From positions 4,585 to 68,584 of IMG/VR virus record IMGVR_UViG_3300042519_001902: a stretch of 64,000 nt of DNA. One strand, 5' to 3'. Below the pieces are notes generated by a model. The model did no database searches. It saw only the letters and a program-made list of their open reading frames with translations, and was not told where the DNA came from. Positions 26,014 to 55,227 of this stretch are shown piece after piece. Position 1 is the first letter of the stretch, and each line of letters starts with the position of its first letter. The position numbers and the translations under genes were made by a program. The stretch comes from a virus.

Positions 26014-26394
26014 TCACTTGATGCGAACGGCGGTGACGTGGATTACCCCGACCTTCGGATTCTCCAGGATGCGGAAGGCGGTGTGCGACAGGTCGAACAG
26101 TCGGCCTTTGTCGCGGAGCGCCTTGGACGGACCACGGTCAGTAACCTCGCAGACGACGGAACGCTTGGTGCCGCCCTTCGAGATGTACGTTAACTCGACG
26201 ATGCTCCCGAGCGGGAATGCGTACGTCGCCATGGTTAGGAGGTAGGCGTTGTACGGCTGACCGTTCGCCATTCTCTTGCCGACGTATTCGCGGGCGTAGA
26301 ACGACGCGTCTCCCGTCAGGGCGACGGGTTCTTTCCCGCTCAGCGACAGTGTCGCCGAGACGGCCATTAAGATATTTTTTAGTAGGTTTTTCAT
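26014..26394 (-). CDS. RlpA-like DPBB lytic transglycosylase with signal-like N-terminus
   Basis: G.ASFY....G.RMANG..YN...T.A...PLG..V...VTDRGP....FDLS..AF. Confidence 0.85.
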   Translation of the reverse strand: MKNLLKNILMAVSATLSLSGKEPVALTGDASFYAREYVGKRMANGQPYNAYLLTMATYAFPLGSIVELTYISKGGTKRSVVCEVTDRGPSKALRDKGRLFDLSHTAFRILENPKVGVIHVTAVRIK

Positions 26395-26852
26395 AGCTGG
26401 TCCAAACCCCACGCCATGATGTGCAGCGCGTCGGCGACGTTGTCGTCCGGCACATGCATCGTGGGGTACTTTTTTCTGGCGACGGCAACCATCAGCTCTT
26501 TCGAGGCCCGATGCGTACCCGTCGCGTGTTTCTTTAAGGTGATTACGGGAACGGCCATGTAGGTGACACCAACCTCGTCGCAGCATTTCATGAGAATCGC
26601 TGAGCACGCTCCGAGGACTTGGGCCGCTTGCACGCCGGCATGAGCGCGATGCTCCTCAAACACGACCAAGGCAGGCCGATGCGTTTGAAGCAGCTCGCGG
26701 ATTCCTTTTTCAAAGCGCAGGAACCTCGCGCCGAGTGAGTCGAATCGCCGTGGACTGACGACGATCAAGCCACACGCCACCGGACCGTCGGAAGTACCGA
26801 CCGCCCAGCCCGTGTTTTGGAAAGCCTGATCGAACGCCAGTACGGTTTTCAT
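26391..26852 (-). CDS. RuvC-like Holliday junction resolvase
   Basis: VLAFD...TGWA, VVFEE, LKK.ATG...ASKE.M, DNVADA. Confidence 0.88.
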   Translation of the reverse strand: MKTVLAFDQAFQNTGWAVGTSDGPVACGLIVVSPRRFDSLGARFLRFEKGIRELLQTHRPALVVFEEHRAHAGVQAAQVLGACSAILMKCCDEVGVTYMAVPVITLKKHATGTHRASKELMVAVARKKYPTMHVPDDNVADALHIMAWGLDQL

Positions 26853-51466: not shown

Positions 51467-51520
51467 TTTTGCTTGTAAAGCAGGCACACGGTAACAAAAA
51501 ATAACAACGCAACCACACAT

Positions 51521-51927: not shown

Positions 51928-52386
51928 ATGGATATCACCACTCTCTTCGCTGGCCCGTTAGGCGGAATCCTCGGATTGGGTGGTGCCATTTTCCAAAAGT
52001 GGATGGGCATGAAGGAGGCTAAGCAGAACCATGAGTTCAAGGTAGCCGAGATGGAGATGTCTGCGAAGATTGATGTGCAGAAAGCGGACATCACGTACCG
52101 GCAGACGGTCGAGGAGGCCAATGCCGCGTCGTTCGCAGCGGCGATCAAAGCACAGGGGTCTCTCGCCTCAACCGGGGTGACTGCGAACATCATGACCCTG
52201 TTCCGCCCGGGACTGACACTGGCCCTCTGGATCACTGCTACGTCCATGAGCATCATCTACCGCAACGAAGATCCTGCGATGATGGAGTTCATCATCACCT
52301 CGACTTTTTCGATGTTCTCAATGGCGACAGGCTACTGGTTCGGCGTGCGCTCCGAGGAGAAATTTAAATCGAGCTCAAAAAAATAA
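51928..52386 (+). CDS. Holin-like membrane protein
   Basis: GG..GL.G N-terminal helix, RP.LT, two C-terminal TM helices, YWFG.R. Confidence 0.7.
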   Translation: MDITTLFAGPLGGILGLGGAIFQKWMGMKEAKQNHEFKVAEMEMSAKIDVQKADITYRQTVEEANAASFAAAIKAQGSLASTGVTANIMTLFRPGLTLALWITATSMSIIYRNEDPAMMEFIITSTFSMFSMATGYWFGVRSEEKFKSSSKK

Positions 52387-52399
52387 GGAATCCAACCCG

Positions 52400-52732
52400 A
52401 TGCTGAACGAACAGAAGGATCTCATGGAAGTGGCTCGGCTCTGGCGAGAGACCGGCTGGCTCACGGCTGTCATCGGTGGCGCGGGCATGACCGCCCGGTT
52501 GCTGGCTAACCCAATTCAAGGCACGACGTGGGACAGCATCCGCCGCATCCTGATGGCGGCTATCGTCAGCACCATCGCGTGGTTCATCGTCGAGCAGATC
52601 GACGGGCTGAGCTCCCTAGTGAAAGCAATCACGTACGGGGTAGCCGGCGTGGTAGCGCCAGAGCTGTTAGAGGGGATCACGACCCTCGCCAAAAAATACG
52701 CCAAGAATCCGACCAAGGTCCTCAAGAAATAA
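52400..52732 (+). CDS. Holin-like membrane protein (3 TM)
   Basis: Three hydrophobic helices, G..G..A.E pattern, basic C-terminus. Confidence 0.65.
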   Translation: MLNEQKDLMEVARLWRETGWLTAVIGGAGMTARLLANPIQGTTWDSIRRILMAAIVSTIAWFIVEQIDGLSSLVKAITYGVAGVVAPELLEGITTLAKKYAKNPTKVLKK

Positions 52733-53331
52733 TGAACCCGAAGGTCATTACTGCTCTACTTGCTGCGGTCGTCATCTGCTTCGCTGGCGTCGGAGCGTTG
52801 ACCGTGAAGTCAGTCTCCGGGCACATCGCCGCGAGCGACAAAGAATTTGCCCTGACGAGCAACGTGCTGAGTCCGATGTTCGACATTTACGGACTCGCAA
52901 TCGTGGACTCTCAAGCCAAGGCGAGCAAGGGGCTGATCGACGCAAAGGAGTTCTGTGCCTCACTAACCGGGCTGGAGTCTGAAGCCGAGCGGTTGATTAG
53001 CGAGTTCGGCAATCCGCCCGAGTTGGTCGCGCAGCACGGGCTCGTTAAAGCCTACTTGCGAAAAGTGCGCGTGGCCTGCGACAGCGGACAGATCGAGACG
53101 CTGAACTCTGCGACGATGACCGCCGAACTGTACAGCGTCATCGAGCCGATGACCGAGTCGATCAACAAAATGCTAGCTAACAATCTGGCGATCTCTCGCG
53201 GGCACAAAGACTCGGCAGACCGGGCGCTGATCACGTTTGAGCGGTTCGCCTCGGTGGCTGCGGGGCTGGGCATCGTCTTCGCCATCGCGCCGTGGATTGG
53301 CCGCAAAACTAAAAAAAGGGGGAAGAGGTAA
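52732..53331 (+). CDS. Two-TM protein with MCP-type four-helix-bundle sensor domain and no signalling domain
   Basis: TM - L..M.D.Y...IVD...K...G ... ELY.VI.P....I..M....L - TM - KTKKRGKR; TAATG overlap with the holin-like gene. Confidence 0.65.
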   Translation: MNPKVITALLAAVVICFAGVGALTVKSVSGHIAASDKEFALTSNVLSPMFDIYGLAIVDSQAKASKGLIDAKEFCASLTGLESEAERLISEFGNPPELVAQHGLVKAYLRKVRVACDSGQIETLNSATMTAELYSVIEPMTESINKMLANNLAISRGHKDSADRALITFERFASVAAGLGIVFAIAPWIGRKTKKRGKR

Positions 53332-55227
53332 ATGGCCCGCGAAACTACCTTTTCCGTTCGCGCCACCCAAGGCGGTCGGCTGATGAACACCCCATCCGTC
53401 GACAACGTCGGAGTGGGGAACTACGCCATCAAGACGAACTGGCGGCGCGAGAACGACGCCGAGGTTCCTCGCGAGGGGCACCTCCCGTTCAAAGGGAACA
53501 CCGCTCTTTCCAACGACTCGGCCCAGACTCTATCCATCGGCTCCGACATCATCGGCCTGTGGGAAGCCACTCGCCCCAACGGAGATCGCGCCATCGTCGC
53601 CGCCAGCAAGACAACGATCTACCGCTTCGACTACACCACCGGAACGTGGCTGACCATCGGCTCCGGCTTCTCGGCGAGCACCACCAACTGGGAGGGCGAA
53701 CAGCTCGACGGCTACCTGATCCTGAATAACGGCATCGATCTCCCCGTCACGTTCCGCGTCGAGTCCAGCGAGGTATCCCCGATCTACGAGCTGCGGGAGA
53801 ACGGGATCGCCTCAGTCGGGCACATCGCGACGCACAACGGGTTTCTCGTTTGTGCCGACATCTCCGAGGTCGCGAGCACCCACCTGACGACGTTGATGAA
53901 CAGCGCGACCCCGTACGGGGTGGTGAGCGCGGCCAATGTTAACCGGATCCGCTACAAACTTTCATGGAGCGACTTTGGCGCACCTCGCAACTGGTCGCCG
54001 GTCGTCTCCGGTACGATCCAGTCCGCGACCAAGAACAAGGTCACCCTCGTGTTCCCGATGCCCGTCACCTTCGGCGTCGGCAGCAAGCTCGGCATCATCG
54101 GCGCTGGCCCCAATGGGACGACCCTCGGCGGTCAGTCCGGCTACGACGACGGCGTCACCGTCACAGCGGTCAACGGATCCGAACTCACGCTGAACCTGAC
54201 GGCGGATGCGTCTCTGACCTACCCGCTGAACGTCTCCGTCACGCGCTTCGCTGACGTGTCCACCTTCGCCGGCAGCAGCAGCATCAAGGATGACTCGTCC
54301 GCCATTCTGGCGGTCCGCTCGCTGAAGCAGGTTCTCATCGTCTACCGCGAAACCGGCATCTGGATCGGGCGTTACACGGGCTCCGTCGAGACTCCGTTCC
54401 AGTTTCGGCCCGCGTATAAGGGTCCAAACGTGCTGGCGCATCCTCGCGCCATTGCCGACATCGACGGCGACTATCATCTCTTCGTCGGCCCCGATAGCGT
54501 GTACCGCTTCGATGGAGCCGGGAGCCCCGCTATCCACCGGACAACCACTGACGCGAGCGCCCTGCTCTTTGCGTCGATTAGTGCGGCTCCGTCCGACTCG
54601 GCAGAGAAAGTCTTCGTCTCGCACAACTCGATCACGCGTGAGTGGTGGTTCCACTACTCGGGCGGCGTGCTCGCCTACAGCTACCTTTACGACTCGTGCA
54701 GCACCATCGACACGCCGTACACCGCTGCGGTGATCGTGCGAAAGCCGAATTCCTCCGATAACATCCCGTGGTCCGTCACTGCTGCGGGCGGTAAAGTGCT
54801 GCAACACGCCGTCCTCGACTCTGGGCCGATCTGCTACACCCGCTCCAGCGTACTGGGGGTAACCACCCCCGTCACCTGCGTGCTCAAACGCGGCGAGATC
54901 ACGCTCAACGACGATGAGTCGGAGAAGGACATCAACAGTTACCTGCCGCTGTTTGCGGCGATCCCGCAGGCGACCGGAAGTCAGTTGACGGTGACCCTTT
55001 TTGGCCGAGACAACATCGCTCAGCCCCCGGAGACCCTGTGCTCCGTCACGTTGGAGGACGCGACGATCAGCCCCTTGATCGAAACGCATTTCAGAAACGT
55101 GTACTTCAGCGACTCGATTACCTACGTGCCCGGATCCACGACCCAGGTGGCAAAGCTGCTCGGCTGCACCTACAGCTTCAGCCGCGTCGGCTCTCGCGGC
55201 GTAACCCGACACGATGGCACTCTCTGA
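53332..55227 (+). CDS. Tail nozzle / tail tubular protein B-like
   Basis: LILNNG, WSD.G.P.NW, LIVY.E..IW; beta-propeller-like. Confidence 0.7.
   Translation: MARETTFSVRATQGGRLMNTPSVDNVGVGNYAIKTNWRRENDAEVPREGHLPFKGNTALSNDSAQTLSIGSDIIGLWEATRPNGDRAIVAASKTTIYRFDYTTGTWLTIGSGFSASTTNWEGEQLDGYLILNNGIDLPVTFRVESSEVSPIYELRENGIASVGHIATHNGFLVCADISEVASTHLTTLMNSATPYGVVSAANVNRIRYKLSWSDFGAPRNWSPVVSGTIQSATKNKVTLVFPMPVTFGVGSKLGIIGAGPNGTTLGGQSGYDDGVTVTAVNGSELTLNLTADASLTYPLNVSVTRFADVSTFAGSSSIKDDSSAILAVRSLKQVLIVYRETGIWIGRYTGSVETPFQFRPAYKGPNVLAHPRAIADIDGDYHLFVGPDSVYRFDGAGSPAIHRTTTDASALLFASISAAPSDSAEKVFVSHNSITREWWFHYSGGVLAYSYLYDSCSTIDTPYTAAVIVRKPNSSDNIPWSVTAAGGKVLQHAVLDSGPICYTRSSVLGVTTPVTCVLKRGEITLNDDESEKDINSYLPLFAAIPQATGSQLTVTLFGRDNIAQPPETLCSVTLEDATISPLIETHFRNVYFSDSITYVPGSTTQVAKLLGCTYSFSRVGSRGVTRHDGTL

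What the first reader, a model, noticed from the sequence alone, without database searches (positions are those of the whole stretch)
51928..53331. Orphan chemoreceptor-type sensor coupled to a holin-like gene: possible signal-responsive lysis control
Seen: two holin-like genes, then (TAATG overlap) a 199-aa TM-periplasmic-TM protein that ends in a short basic tail. Recognised from memory: LSPMFDIYGLAIVDSQAK and ELYSVIEPMTESINKML resemble the D.YAVNIVD..HK and ELYP.IDP....IS.L motifs of 4HB_MCP ligand-binding domains, but HAMP and signalling domains are absent. Established: T4 lysis inhibition works through a periplasmic holin-antiholin contact. Inference: a captured receptor acting as a ligand-gated antiholin that times lysis to outside cues, or a dominant-negative jammer of host receptors. 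I know no described phage system of this kind.
Basis: partly seen in the sequence, partly recalled or inferred. Interest (0 to 1): 0.82.

Follow-up and report, generated by a model that had tools for sequence, protein, structure and literature searches.

The report
Sensor-fold partner protein of a phage holin
An uncultured phage encodes a membrane protein built like the sensing part of a bacterial chemoreceptor but with no signalling part, always fused gene-to-gene to a holin-like lysis gene, which suggests an undescribed way for phages to regulate when they burst their host.

Summary
Window 51928-53331 carries three membrane-protein genes: a 152-aa distant relative of PF11351 holins, a 110-aa three-TM holin-like protein, and, overlapping its stop (TAATG), a 199-aa TM / periplasmic four-helix bundle / TM protein with a 9-residue basic tail. 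Pfam does not hit the 199-aa protein itself. Profile searches nevertheless link its family to genuine 4HB_MCP_1 sensor domains: hhalign 98.7%, E 4e-16, with column-shuffle controls scoring 23 or less against 119; and a histidine kinase at E 1.6e-7. HAMP and signalling domains are absent.

In 165 of 168 related viral loci (GC 33-61%) the 110-aa homologue lies directly upstream, and the three exceptions are contig ends. Stop and start overlap in 164 of 165. In one distant clade a CHAP peptidoglycan hydrolase follows immediately in 70 of 72 loci. The pair is therefore a mobile lysis-cassette module.

The function is inferred, not shown. The most likely role is a holin partner that regulates hole formation, like an antiholin, possibly in response to a signal. 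I found no cultured-phage homologue and no description in print. It is a new variant of a known kind, of moderately high interest.

The parts
51928..52386 (+). 152-aa membrane protein (Gly-rich N-terminal segment plus two C-terminal hydrophobic segments, basic end). It is a distant relative of PF11351 (GTA_holin_3TM) holins and occupies the first slot of the cassette.
   Evidence: ORF. phrog_6637 E 1e-6 and phrog_3427 (holin) E 0.03. No Pfam family over its cut-off. phmmer E 2.4e-9 to the L010-type and E 0.0031 to the L008-type protein in the same slot of relatives; the L008-type passes PF11351 at 40.9 bits against a cut-off of 24.8. One of these two types is present in 75 of 80 close loci. 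It is absent from the three distant clades.
52400..52732 (+). 110-aa holin-like protein with three predicted TM segments and a basic C-terminal tail. It is the invariable upstream partner of the 199-aa gene.
   Evidence: ORF. PF06946 E 0.028 (below its cut-off) and phrog_6384 holin E 0.0066. ESM Atlas nearest clusters carry Phage_holin_3_1/3_2/3_3 at 0.90-0.92 (a lead only). Identity is 47-52% to homologues in phages of 34-38% GC. There are 26 invariant columns across 18 sequences. It lies upstream on the same strand in 165 of 168 loci.
52732..53331 (+). 199-aa protein: TM1 (about 5-25), periplasmic up-down four-helix bundle (about 26-168), TM2 (about 169-190), basic tail RKTKKRGKR. It is an output-less relative of 4HB_MCP sensor domains.
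   Evidence: ORF, hydropathy. AlphaFold2 pLDDT 85.3, helices 3-65, 71-91, 96-117, 127-188; profile homology to PF12729 proteins. NarQ sensor-plus-TM fragment, Z 13.2, 185 residues aligned.
26014..26394 (-). Candidate endolysin of this phage, unlinked to the cassette: a 126-aa protein with an N-terminal signal-like segment and an RlpA-type DPBB_1 'lytic transglycolase' domain. Its start overlaps the stop of a RuvC-like gene (26391-26852).
   Evidence: Pfam PF03330 at 51.8 bits against a cut-off of 28.8; sequence. No PF00959, PF01464, PF01510 or PF01471 in the genome, and no CHAP-like ORF. Assigning it the endolysin role is inference.

Best explanation
The 199-aa protein belongs to a phage-only family of 'bare' sensor modules: TM1, a periplasmic four-helix bundle homologous to the 4HB_MCP_1 ligand-binding domain of chemoreceptors and sensor kinases, TM2, and usually a short Lys/Arg-rich cytoplasmic tail. 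It has no HAMP, kinase or methyl-accepting output. It is made together with a conserved 105-110-aa three-TM holin-like protein, because the holin gene's stop overlaps its start. Together they form a two-gene module that moves between lysis cassettes. The most likely role (inferred) is a dedicated partner of that holin that sets or delays hole formation, as an antiholin or lysis-timing regulator does. The two TM helices would contact the holin in the membrane, replacing the missing output domain. The conserved polar patch at the membrane-distal ends of helices 1 and 4 would be the input site for a periplasmic ligand or protein. Shown here: gene structure, fold, homology, obligate linkage, and lysis-cassette context. 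Inferred: binding to the holin, the sign of the effect (inhibition versus assistance), and any signal dependence. My odds are about 0.9 for 4HB_MCP homology, about 0.85 for a lysis-cassette component, about 0.5 for a holin regulator, and about 0.3 for signal-responsive regulation.
For: Homology. A profile of 33 family members run against 1.84 billion representatives gave 33 hits at E<=0.001. I scanned 12 of these with Pfam, and 6 carry PF12729 over its cut-off in exactly the aligned N-terminal region: P0111, P0112, P0114, P0115 and P0110, P0117. hhalign of family alignment A2 against these six gave probability 98.7%, E 4e-16 over 171 columns. In my control the real score was 119.4, against at most 23.1 in 20 column shuffles and 16.6 for the reversed alignment. 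A separate word-seeded search for longer proteins found a 678-aa histidine kinase (PF12729 58.1 bits, PAS, HisKA_2, HATPase) at E 1.6e-7 covering 91% of the query. hhalign to that single sequence gave 95.5%, E 1.5e-8 over 194 columns from TM1 to TM2. PF12729 is the Pfam family hit by most members (3 of 26, best E 0.0051, below its cut-off). Fold. AlphaFold2 gave pLDDT 85.3. The best structural match is the NarQ sensor-plus-TM fragment: Z 13.2, rmsd 3.8, 185 residues. Linkage. The 110-aa homologue lies directly upstream on the same strand in 165 of 168 loci from four clades, GC 0.33-0.61. Stop and start overlap in 164 of 165 (ATGA 140, TAATG 24). Flanking genes are otherwise unrelated: the 631-, 132- and 866-aa neighbours have 0 homologues in 171 loci. 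Lysis context. A PF11351-type holin gene lies upstream in the close clade (75 of 80). A CHAP-domain protein (PF05257, 33.5 bits) lies immediately downstream in 70 of 72 loci of the P0106 clade that have room for it. Family-wide conserved residues sit in TM1 (F17, G21), in TM2 (L179) and at the distal ends of helix 1 (D51, Y53, K63) and helix 4 (E132, Y134, P139, N145). Precedents. In ICP1 a PF11351 holin, TeaA, is paired with ArrA, an antiholin the authors sought among neighbouring TM-containing proteins (PMC7182436, passages). T4 RI inhibits holin T and works when membrane-anchored (PMC11413866, abstract). GlnX is a 4HB protein without an enzymatic output that signals through partner proteins (PMC9769921, passages).
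Against: There is no functional evidence of any kind. The window protein gets no Pfam 4HB_MCP hit even at E<=1. A profile search of PDB sequences found no chemoreceptor or sensor at E<=10. Foldseek found no match at E<=0.001 (best 0.079). Unrelated four-helix bundles (PsbQ, designed proteins) score Z 11-12, close to the sensors, so the structure alone does not discriminate. The six cellular proteins in A3 were picked because they hit the family profile, which inflates the result; reduce this circularity but do not remove it. The 110-aa protein is not proven to be a holin, since every family match is below threshold. It is also unusually conserved for a holin (47-52% identity where the 4HB partner keeps 28-31%). 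In the window phage and in the P0087 and P0089 clades no endolysin gene is adjacent. The only endolysin candidate in this genome lies 26 kb away on the other strand. The basic tail is missing in four distant members (P0105, P0106, P0107, P0113). TM1 could be a cleaved signal peptide: the hydrophobic run is only 14-15 residues in distant members and G21 is invariant. That would change the proposed in-membrane contact.
Confidence: 0.5

Rival explanations
1. Structural co-holin or assembly factor. The 199-aa protein is a required subunit or scaffold of the lesion formed with the 110-aa protein (a two-component holin). The four-helix bundle is only a stable ectodomain that senses nothing.
For: Obligate pairing and translational coupling suggest fixed stoichiometry. 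TM residues F17, G21 and L179 are conserved. In the P0106 clade this pair is the only holin candidate next to a CHAP hydrolase that has no signal sequence.
Against: Across the family the residues that stay conserved in the ectodomain are mainly polar or aromatic and lie at the distal ends of helices 1 and 4. They match the signature positions of true sensor domains, which fits a binding site better than an inert scaffold. The close clade also carries a second holin type, PF11351, so a regulator role would be useful there.
Confidence: 0.2
2. Envelope-disruption or spanin-like role. The protein acts at the last lysis step, bridging or destabilising the envelope, as a unimolecular or inner-membrane spanin equivalent.
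For: It sits in a lysis cassette. It has an N-terminal hydrophobic segment with a Cys at position 16 that is invariant in the close clade, plus a C-terminal TM, which superficially matches u-spanin topology. My filter found no lipobox ORF anywhere in this genome, so no canonical spanin is evident.
Against: Cys16 sits in V-[V/I]-C, not a lipobox, and distant homologues have I, A, V, L or G there. The fold is a compact bundle anchored at both ends in one membrane. In the P0106 clade a separate lipoprotein gene (lipobox in 61 of 63) overlapped with a coiled-coil ORF is present in 50 of 50 loci with enough upstream DNA, so a spanin-like candidate already exists there.
Confidence: 0.08
3. Not a lysis regulator. 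The pair is a membrane 'moron', for example for superinfection exclusion or immunity, or a decoy that interferes with host chemoreceptors or sensor kinases by forming mixed dimers.
For: In the P0087 and P0089 clades the pair sits among unrelated genes (RNA ligase, dUTPase-like, glycosyltransferase-like) with no endolysin nearby. The module is mobile. 4HB sensors act as dimers (established knowledge, recalled).
Against: Identity to any cellular 4HB domain is only about 18-23%, too low for specific mixed dimers. The strict coupling is to a holin-like protein. A CHAP hydrolase is adjacent in 70 of 72 loci of one clade, and PF11351 holins are adjacent in 75 of 80 of another.
Confidence: 0.12

Closest known systems
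4HB_MCP_1 / TarH ligand-binding domains of chemoreceptors and sensor histidine kinases (Pfam PF12729, PF02203; structures such as NarQ 5iji, Tsr 2d4u, MCP2201 LBD)
   Same: The TM1 / four-helix bundle / TM2 architecture is the same. Profile-level homology spans the whole module. The signature positions are shared: Y53, D59, K63, G67 on helix 1 and Y134, E/D138, P139 on helix 4 correspond to invariant columns of the cellular set. The best structural match is NarQ, Z 13.2.
   Different: No HAMP, MCPsignal, PAS or kinase domain; the protein ends 9 residues after TM2. It falls below every Pfam threshold. It is phage-encoded and coupled to a holin-like gene rather than to a signalling pathway.
T4 holin T with antiholin RI (lysis inhibition)
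   Same: A holin whose activity is set by a partner with a periplasmic domain, which can act while membrane-anchored (PMC11413866, abstract). The genes belong to the lysis system, and the partner is proposed to link lysis timing to a periplasmic cue.
   Different: No sequence or fold relation was found. In T4 the holin carries the large periplasmic domain and RI is small; here the holin-like protein has almost no periplasmic part and the partner carries a sensor-type bundle with two TM segments. T4 t and rI are not translationally coupled (recalled). Function here is untested.
ICP1 TeaA (PF11351 holin) with ArrA (antiholin)
   Same: A PF11351-type holin sits in a cluster of conserved TM-protein genes, from which an experimentally supported antiholin was identified (PMC7182436, passages). 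The close clade here has a PF11351-type gene directly upstream of the pair.
   Different: tblastn of the 110-aa and 199-aa proteins against 50,697 phage records gave no match, so ArrA is not a detectable relative. I could not see the paper's supplementary tables, which hold gene-product identities and homologue lists.
GlnX of Corynebacterium glutamicum (tandem periplasmic 4HB, no enzymatic output)
   Same: A 4HB sensor fold anchored by TM helices that signals only through contacts with partner proteins, with one bundle undetectable by Pfam (PMC9769921, passages).
   Different: GlnX is cellular, has four TM segments and two bundles, and acts on the kinase PknG. It has no link to lysis.

Membership tests
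4HB_MCP superfamily (PF12729 4HB_MCP_1 / PF02203 TarH) | Match to the Pfam model at or above the gathering score | tested here: not met
   No PF12729 or PF02203 hit on the window protein at E<=1. Of 26 family members, 3 hit PF12729, best E 0.0051, below the cut-off.
4HB_MCP superfamily (PF12729 4HB_MCP_1 / PF02203 TarH) | Significant profile-level homology to proteins that carry the domain | tested here: met
   hhalign 98.7%, E 4e-16 against six PF12729 proteins. Shuffle control: 119.4 against at most 23.1. Histidine kinase P0146 at E 1.6e-7; hhalign to it 95.5%, E 1.5e-8.
4HB_MCP superfamily (PF12729 4HB_MCP_1 / PF02203 TarH) | TM1 / antiparallel four-helix bundle / TM2, with helices 1 and 4 continuous with the TM helices | tested here: met
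   Hydropathy. AlphaFold2 pLDDT 85.3 with helices 3-65, 71-91, 96-117, 127-188. NarQ fragment Z 13.2 over 185 residues. Generic bundles score similarly, so this supports membership but does not prove it.
4HB_MCP superfamily (PF12729 4HB_MCP_1 / PF02203 TarH) | Binds a ligand or a ligand-loaded binding protein; forms a homodimer | not testable with these tools
   Needs a purified ectodomain (about residues 28-168) with thermal-shift or ITC screens and SEC-MALS.
Methyl-accepting chemotaxis protein (full receptor) | HAMP plus MCPsignal cytoplasmic domains | tested here: not met
   The protein ends 9 residues after TM2, with no HAMP or MCPsignal hit. The next gene starts at 53332 and matches a virion structural protein family (phrog_3287).
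Antiholin / holin regulator | Encoded beside and co-expressed with a holin | tested here: met
   165 of 168 loci. Overlapping stop and start in 164 of 165. This holds only if the 110-aa protein is a holin.
Antiholin / holin regulator | Binds the holin and delays or blocks hole formation | not testable with these tools
   Needs co-expression lysis curves, PMF dyes and interaction assays.
Holin (for the 110-aa partner) | Small membrane protein with at least one TM segment and a charged C-terminal tail | tested here: met
   110 aa. Three hydrophobic segments are detected in the 105-106-aa homologues by my hydropathy scan (the stricter scan of the window protein flagged only the middle one), and the aligned columns are conserved. 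Basic C-terminal end.
Holin (for the 110-aa partner) | Match to a described holin family above threshold | tested here: not met
   PF06946 scores 15.2 bits against a cut-off of 22.4. phrog_6384 E 0.0066. The ESM Atlas Phage_holin_3 neighbours at 0.92 are only a lead.
Holin (for the 110-aa partner) | Adjacent to an endolysin gene | tested here: inconclusive
   Met in the P0106 clade: CHAP protein downstream of the pair in 70 of 72 loci. Not met in the window phage or in the close, P0087 and P0089 clades: 0 CHAP-like hits.
Spanin (unimolecular or inner-membrane component) | Lipobox Cys (u-spanin), or a single N-terminal TM with a periplasm-spanning coiled coil (i-spanin) | tested here: not met
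   C16 lies in V-[V/I]-C and is not conserved in distant homologues. There are two TM anchors and a compact bundle.
PF11351 GTA_holin_3TM (for the 152-aa protein) | Match to the Pfam model at or above the gathering score | tested here: inconclusive
   The window protein has no PF11351 hit at E<=1. It matches the protein in the same slot of relatives at E 2.4e-9 (L010-type) and E 0.0031 (L008-type); the L008-type passes PF11351 at 40.9 bits.

The most novel reading that the evidence does not exclude
This is a widespread, undescribed class of signal-gated lysis regulators. Phages would have kept the ligand-binding module of a chemoreceptor or sensor kinase and wired it directly, through its two TM helices, to a holin. 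A periplasmic cue (a metabolite, an envelope-stress product, or material from superinfecting phages) would then set the moment of lysis with no cytoplasmic signalling pathway: a one-protein 'receptor-to-hole' switch.
Probability: 0.3. Interest if true: 0.85.

Novelty: new variant of a known kind. Interest (0 to 1): 0.64.

Why it matters
Outside T-even phages and ICP1, it is poorly understood how phages time lysis in response to the outside world. Here a recognisable sensor fold is hard-wired to a holin-like gene in at least 165 viral loci from four clades with GC 33-61%. That gives a concrete and testable candidate for environment-responsive lysis in uncultured phages. If it holds, it would add a new class of antiholin. 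It would also show a sensor domain acting with no output domain, through in-membrane contact alone, and it would supply a compact ligand-controlled lysis switch for synthetic biology. Even if the bundle senses nothing, the pair defines a new, abundant family of lysis-cassette proteins that Pfam and PHROGs currently leave unannotated.

Tried and rejected
Direct annotation of the 199-aa protein gave nothing: Pfam at E<=1 gave only ATG22 at E 0.061, PHROGs gave nothing, blastn and tblastn against 50,697 phage records found no match, and tblastn with the 110-aa protein and with P0106 also found none.

A profile search of PDB sequences gave only designed helical repeat proteins at E around 3e-4 and no sensor.

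Foldseek against the PDB with both models gave no match at E<=0.001. Foldseek against BFVD gave none at E<=0.001; the best was an uncharacterised 194-aa protein of an uncultured phage at E 0.054.

The scan of 185,579 species genomes with the family alignment found no relative, so I have no host or prophage information.

The viral scans with P0099 and P0094 found nothing.

Complex prediction on the 110-aa and 199-aa alignments returned 'no answer' (score 0.00 in both runs, controls not run). This is neither for nor against binding.

u-spanin idea: rejected, because Cys16 is not in a lipobox and is not conserved.

Endolysin search in the window phage: PF00959, PF01464, PF01510 and PF01471 are absent and there is no CHAP-like ORF. 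Only a DPBB_1 protein was found. I did not test other hydrolase families (GH19, GH25, GH108, M15, M23, NlpC/P60) genome-wide. I scanned 44 distinct window ORFs with Pfam, not every ORF.

The ESM Atlas neighbours of the 152-aa protein are mostly unnamed viral TM clusters.

Literature: four searches found no paper that describes a phage 4HB or chemoreceptor-like lysis protein. They were '4HB_MCP' + 'phage' (4 papers); 'antiholin' / 'periplasmic domain' / 'four-helix bundle' (151 papers held at least two of the three terms, 15 listed); 'holin' + 'chemoreceptor' + 'ligand-binding domain' + 'bacteriophage' (1 paper); and 'methyl-accepting chemotaxis' + 'lysis cassette' (8 papers). I judged these from listings and abstracts only. 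Subscription journals are not covered.

I could not decide whether TM1 is a cleaved signal peptide, as no signal-peptide predictor was at hand.
Full report
What is there. The window is bases 4585-68584 of a 68,584-bp viral record with direct terminal repeats, judged complete. From about 34.7 kb to the end, the + strand carries the packaging and virion genes: large terminase, head protein, a 985-aa tail fibre, a 631-aa virion protein and a tail-tip fibre. Three small membrane-protein genes sit inside this block: 51928-52386 (152 aa), 52400-52732 (110 aa) and 52732-53331 (199 aa). The stop of the 110-aa gene and the ATG of the 199-aa gene share a base (TAATG). The in-frame GTG at 52528 would bury the whole 110-aa gene, so I reject it as the start. 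Hydropathy puts TM segments at about 5-23 and 172-190 of the 199-aa protein, followed by a nine-residue Lys/Arg tail.

Is it a four-helix-bundle sensor relative? Direct searches say nothing. Pfam gives no 4HB_MCP, TarH, HAMP or MCPsignal hit even at E<=1. PHROGs gives nothing, and there is no match in 50,697 phage records. The protein does belong to a family. It has 85 homologues of about 200 aa at 66% identity or more. A profile of 33 of them, run against 1.84 billion representatives, found 33 proteins at E<=0.001.

These fall into two kinds. One kind is phage-type proteins of 198-232 aa with the same TM/helical/TM/basic-tail layout but only 17-31% identity. The other kind, at E 3e-4 to 9e-4, is cellular chemoreceptors or receptor fragments. 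I scanned 12 of the 33 with Pfam, and six carry PF12729 (4HB_MCP_1) above its cut-off exactly where they align.

Profile-profile comparison of the widened phage alignment (A2, 26 sequences) with the six cellular proteins gives probability 98.7%, E 4e-16 over 171 columns. Those six were chosen by the family profile, so I ran three checks against circularity and composition.
- Column-shuffled and reversed versions of the cellular alignment score at most 23.1 and 16.6, against 119.4 for the real one.
- A separate search for longer proteins found a 678-aa PAS/HisKA_2 histidine kinase with PF12729 (58.1 bits) at E 1.6e-7, covering 91% of the query. hhalign to that single sequence gives 95.5%, E 1.5e-8 from TM1 to TM2.
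- PF12729 is the Pfam family hit by the most members of the phage family (3 of 26, best E 0.0051, below threshold).

Structure agrees but cannot decide the matter. With a 44-sequence alignment AlphaFold2 gives pLDDT 85.3 and helices 3-65, 71-91, 96-117 and 127-188. This is an up-down bundle whose first and last helices run on into the TM segments. The top VIA-align match is the NarQ sensor-plus-TM fragment (Z 13.2, rmsd 3.8, 185 residues). Unrelated bundles follow at Z 11-12, and Foldseek finds nothing at E<=0.001. I conclude with about 0.9 confidence that the protein is a remote, output-less member of the 4HB_MCP superfamily. It fails the formal Pfam threshold.

Context and linkage. I collected 171 related viral loci in four clades:
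- a close clade, 80 loci kept of 122 confirmed, GC 0.49-0.61;
- the P0087 clade, 9 loci;
- the P0089 clade, 2 loci;
- the P0106 clade, 80 loci kept of 133 confirmed, GC 0.33-0.41.

Of the 168 loci with a closed homologue of the 199-aa gene, 165 have a homologue of the 110-aa gene directly upstream on the same strand. In the other three the contig ends 59-149 bases before the match. The stop and start overlap in 164 of 165 (ATGA 140, TAATG 24).

The 110-aa protein is the better conserved partner, at 47-52% identity across clades against 28-31% for the 4HB protein. It keeps 26 invariant columns, including charged or polar residues in or beside its hydrophobic segments.

The surroundings are not conserved. 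The window's 631-, 132- and 866-aa neighbours have no homologue in any of the 171 loci. The pair therefore moves as a unit.

In the close clade the slot upstream of the pair holds one of two alternative proteins in 75 of 80 loci. One type (43 loci) passes PF11351 GTA_holin_3TM at 40.9 bits. The window's 152-aa protein matches the other type (32 loci) at E 2.4e-9 and matches the PF11351 type at E 0.0031.

In the P0106 clade a protein with a CHAP peptidoglycan-hydrolase domain (PF05257, 33.5 bits) and no signal sequence starts at the end of the 4HB gene in 70 of the 72 loci with room for it. In the same clade a lipoprotein gene (lipobox in 61 of 63) overlapped with a small coiled-coil ORF lies 0.4-4.1 kb upstream in 50 of 50 loci with enough DNA. 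This resembles an overlapped spanin pair, although the coiled-coil ORF lacks a convincing TM segment. The module is thus a component of lysis cassettes.

The window phage has no adjacent endolysin. Its only candidate is a 126-aa secreted RlpA-type DPBB protein at 26014-26394 on the minus strand. An earlier, unchecked note of this scan (e1-6195483) lists a recurrent intergenic motif at 51489, just upstream of the 132-aa gene. If that motif is a promoter or operator, the three membrane genes would be transcribed from there. I did not test this.

How it most likely works. Every canonical lysis role other than regulator has another candidate in at least one clade: the 110-aa protein and PF11351 relatives for holin, the CHAP or DPBB proteins for endolysin, and the lipoprotein pair for spanin. 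The 4HB protein is never found without the 110-aa protein. Its family-wide conserved residues fall into two groups. F17, G21 and L179 lie in the two TM helices. D51, Y53, K63, E132, Y134, P139 and N145 lie at the distal ends of helices 1 and 4, and they match the invariant positions of the cellular sensor set. From memory, not from a call, this distal helix-1/helix-4 region is where Tar-type receptors bind ligand.

The simplest model is that the sensor module uses its TM helices to hold or release the holin in the membrane, in place of a HAMP output, and that its tip binds a periplasmic ligand or protein. There are experimental precedents for the parts: T4 RI acting on holin T while membrane-anchored (PMC11413866, abstract); the ICP1 PF11351 holin TeaA with its antiholin ArrA (PMC7182436, passages); and the output-less 4HB protein GlnX (PMC9769921, passages). 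None of them has this combination.

The sign of the effect, any ligand, and even holin activity of the 110-aa protein are inferred. The rivals are a non-sensing co-holin (0.2), a spanin-like role (0.08, weakened by the non-conserved Cys16 and the compact two-anchor fold), and a non-lysis membrane function such as exclusion or receptor jamming (0.12, weakened by the low identity to cellular receptors and the lysis context).

Novelty. I found no homologue in cultured phage records, none in 185,579 species genomes, no Pfam or PHROG family, and no paper in four searches (listings and abstracts only). The family is abundant in viral metagenomes, with at least 266 confirmed stretches. I class it as a new variant of known kinds: the 4HB sensor superfamily and holin-partner proteins. 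If signal gating were shown it would move towards something new in kind.

Noticed in passing
window 26014-26394 (-), with 26391-26852 (-): A 126-aa protein with a signal-like N-terminus and an RlpA-type DPBB_1 'lytic transglycolase' domain (51.8 bits). Its ATG overlaps the stop of a RuvC-like gene. It is the only peptidoglycan-enzyme candidate I found in the genome, and it sits in the early, minus-strand block far from the holin-like genes.
   Followed up: partly
window 2-4591 (+), continuing upstream to genome base 24: One open frame of 3,050 aa spans the start of the record. The window part has no Pfam or PHROG match. I did not test whether this giant protein is such a polymerase.
   Followed up: no
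window 6317-7561 (+) and 8138-9151 (-): Two tyrosine-recombinase genes lie close together: PHROG integrase at E 1.4e-18 and Pfam Phage_integrase at 58.1 bits. This suggests a temperate lifestyle, yet no prophage relative was found in 185,579 species genomes through the 4HB protein.
   Followed up: no
loci L002-L081 (close clade), slot at about 5270-5681: Two alternative, mutually exclusive holin-type genes occupy the same slot upstream of the pair: a PF11351 type in 43 loci and a second type in 32, never both. This looks like cassette-style replacement of one holin while the 110-aa/199-aa pair stays.
   Followed up: partly
loci of the P0106 clade, e.g. L103:4921-5613 and L096:4933-5613: Directly upstream of the holin-like gene lies a 226-230-aa protein with a signal peptide and a weak outer-membrane beta-barrel match: MipA at 26.9 bits against a cut-off of 24.2, and OMP_b-brl below its cut-off. 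A phage-encoded MltA-interacting-protein-like scaffold next to a lysis cassette is unusual.
   Followed up: no
loci of the P0106 clade, e.g. L103:3949-4215 and 4040-4309: An 88-aa coiled-coil ORF overlaps, in another frame, an 89-aa lipoprotein ORF (lipobox in 61 of 63). The pair is present in 63 loci. It looks like an overlapped spanin pair, but the first ORF lacks a clear TM segment.
   Followed up: partly
protein P0145: A 454-aa predicted protein on a 3.6-kb contig is 69% identical to half of the 199-aa protein and also carries an MFS_1 domain (PF07690). It is either a chimeric gene call or a real fusion.
   Followed up: no
window 4595-5337 (+): A PD-(D/E)XK endonuclease-like gene (PF11645) is followed by a gene with the N-terminal domain of dATP/dGTP diphosphohydrolase (PF18909, 70.4 bits). 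Its PHROG matches labelled 'endolysin; inhibits RNA polymerase' are partial matches (about 50-80 of 178-285 profile positions); no lytic domain was found.
   Followed up: partly
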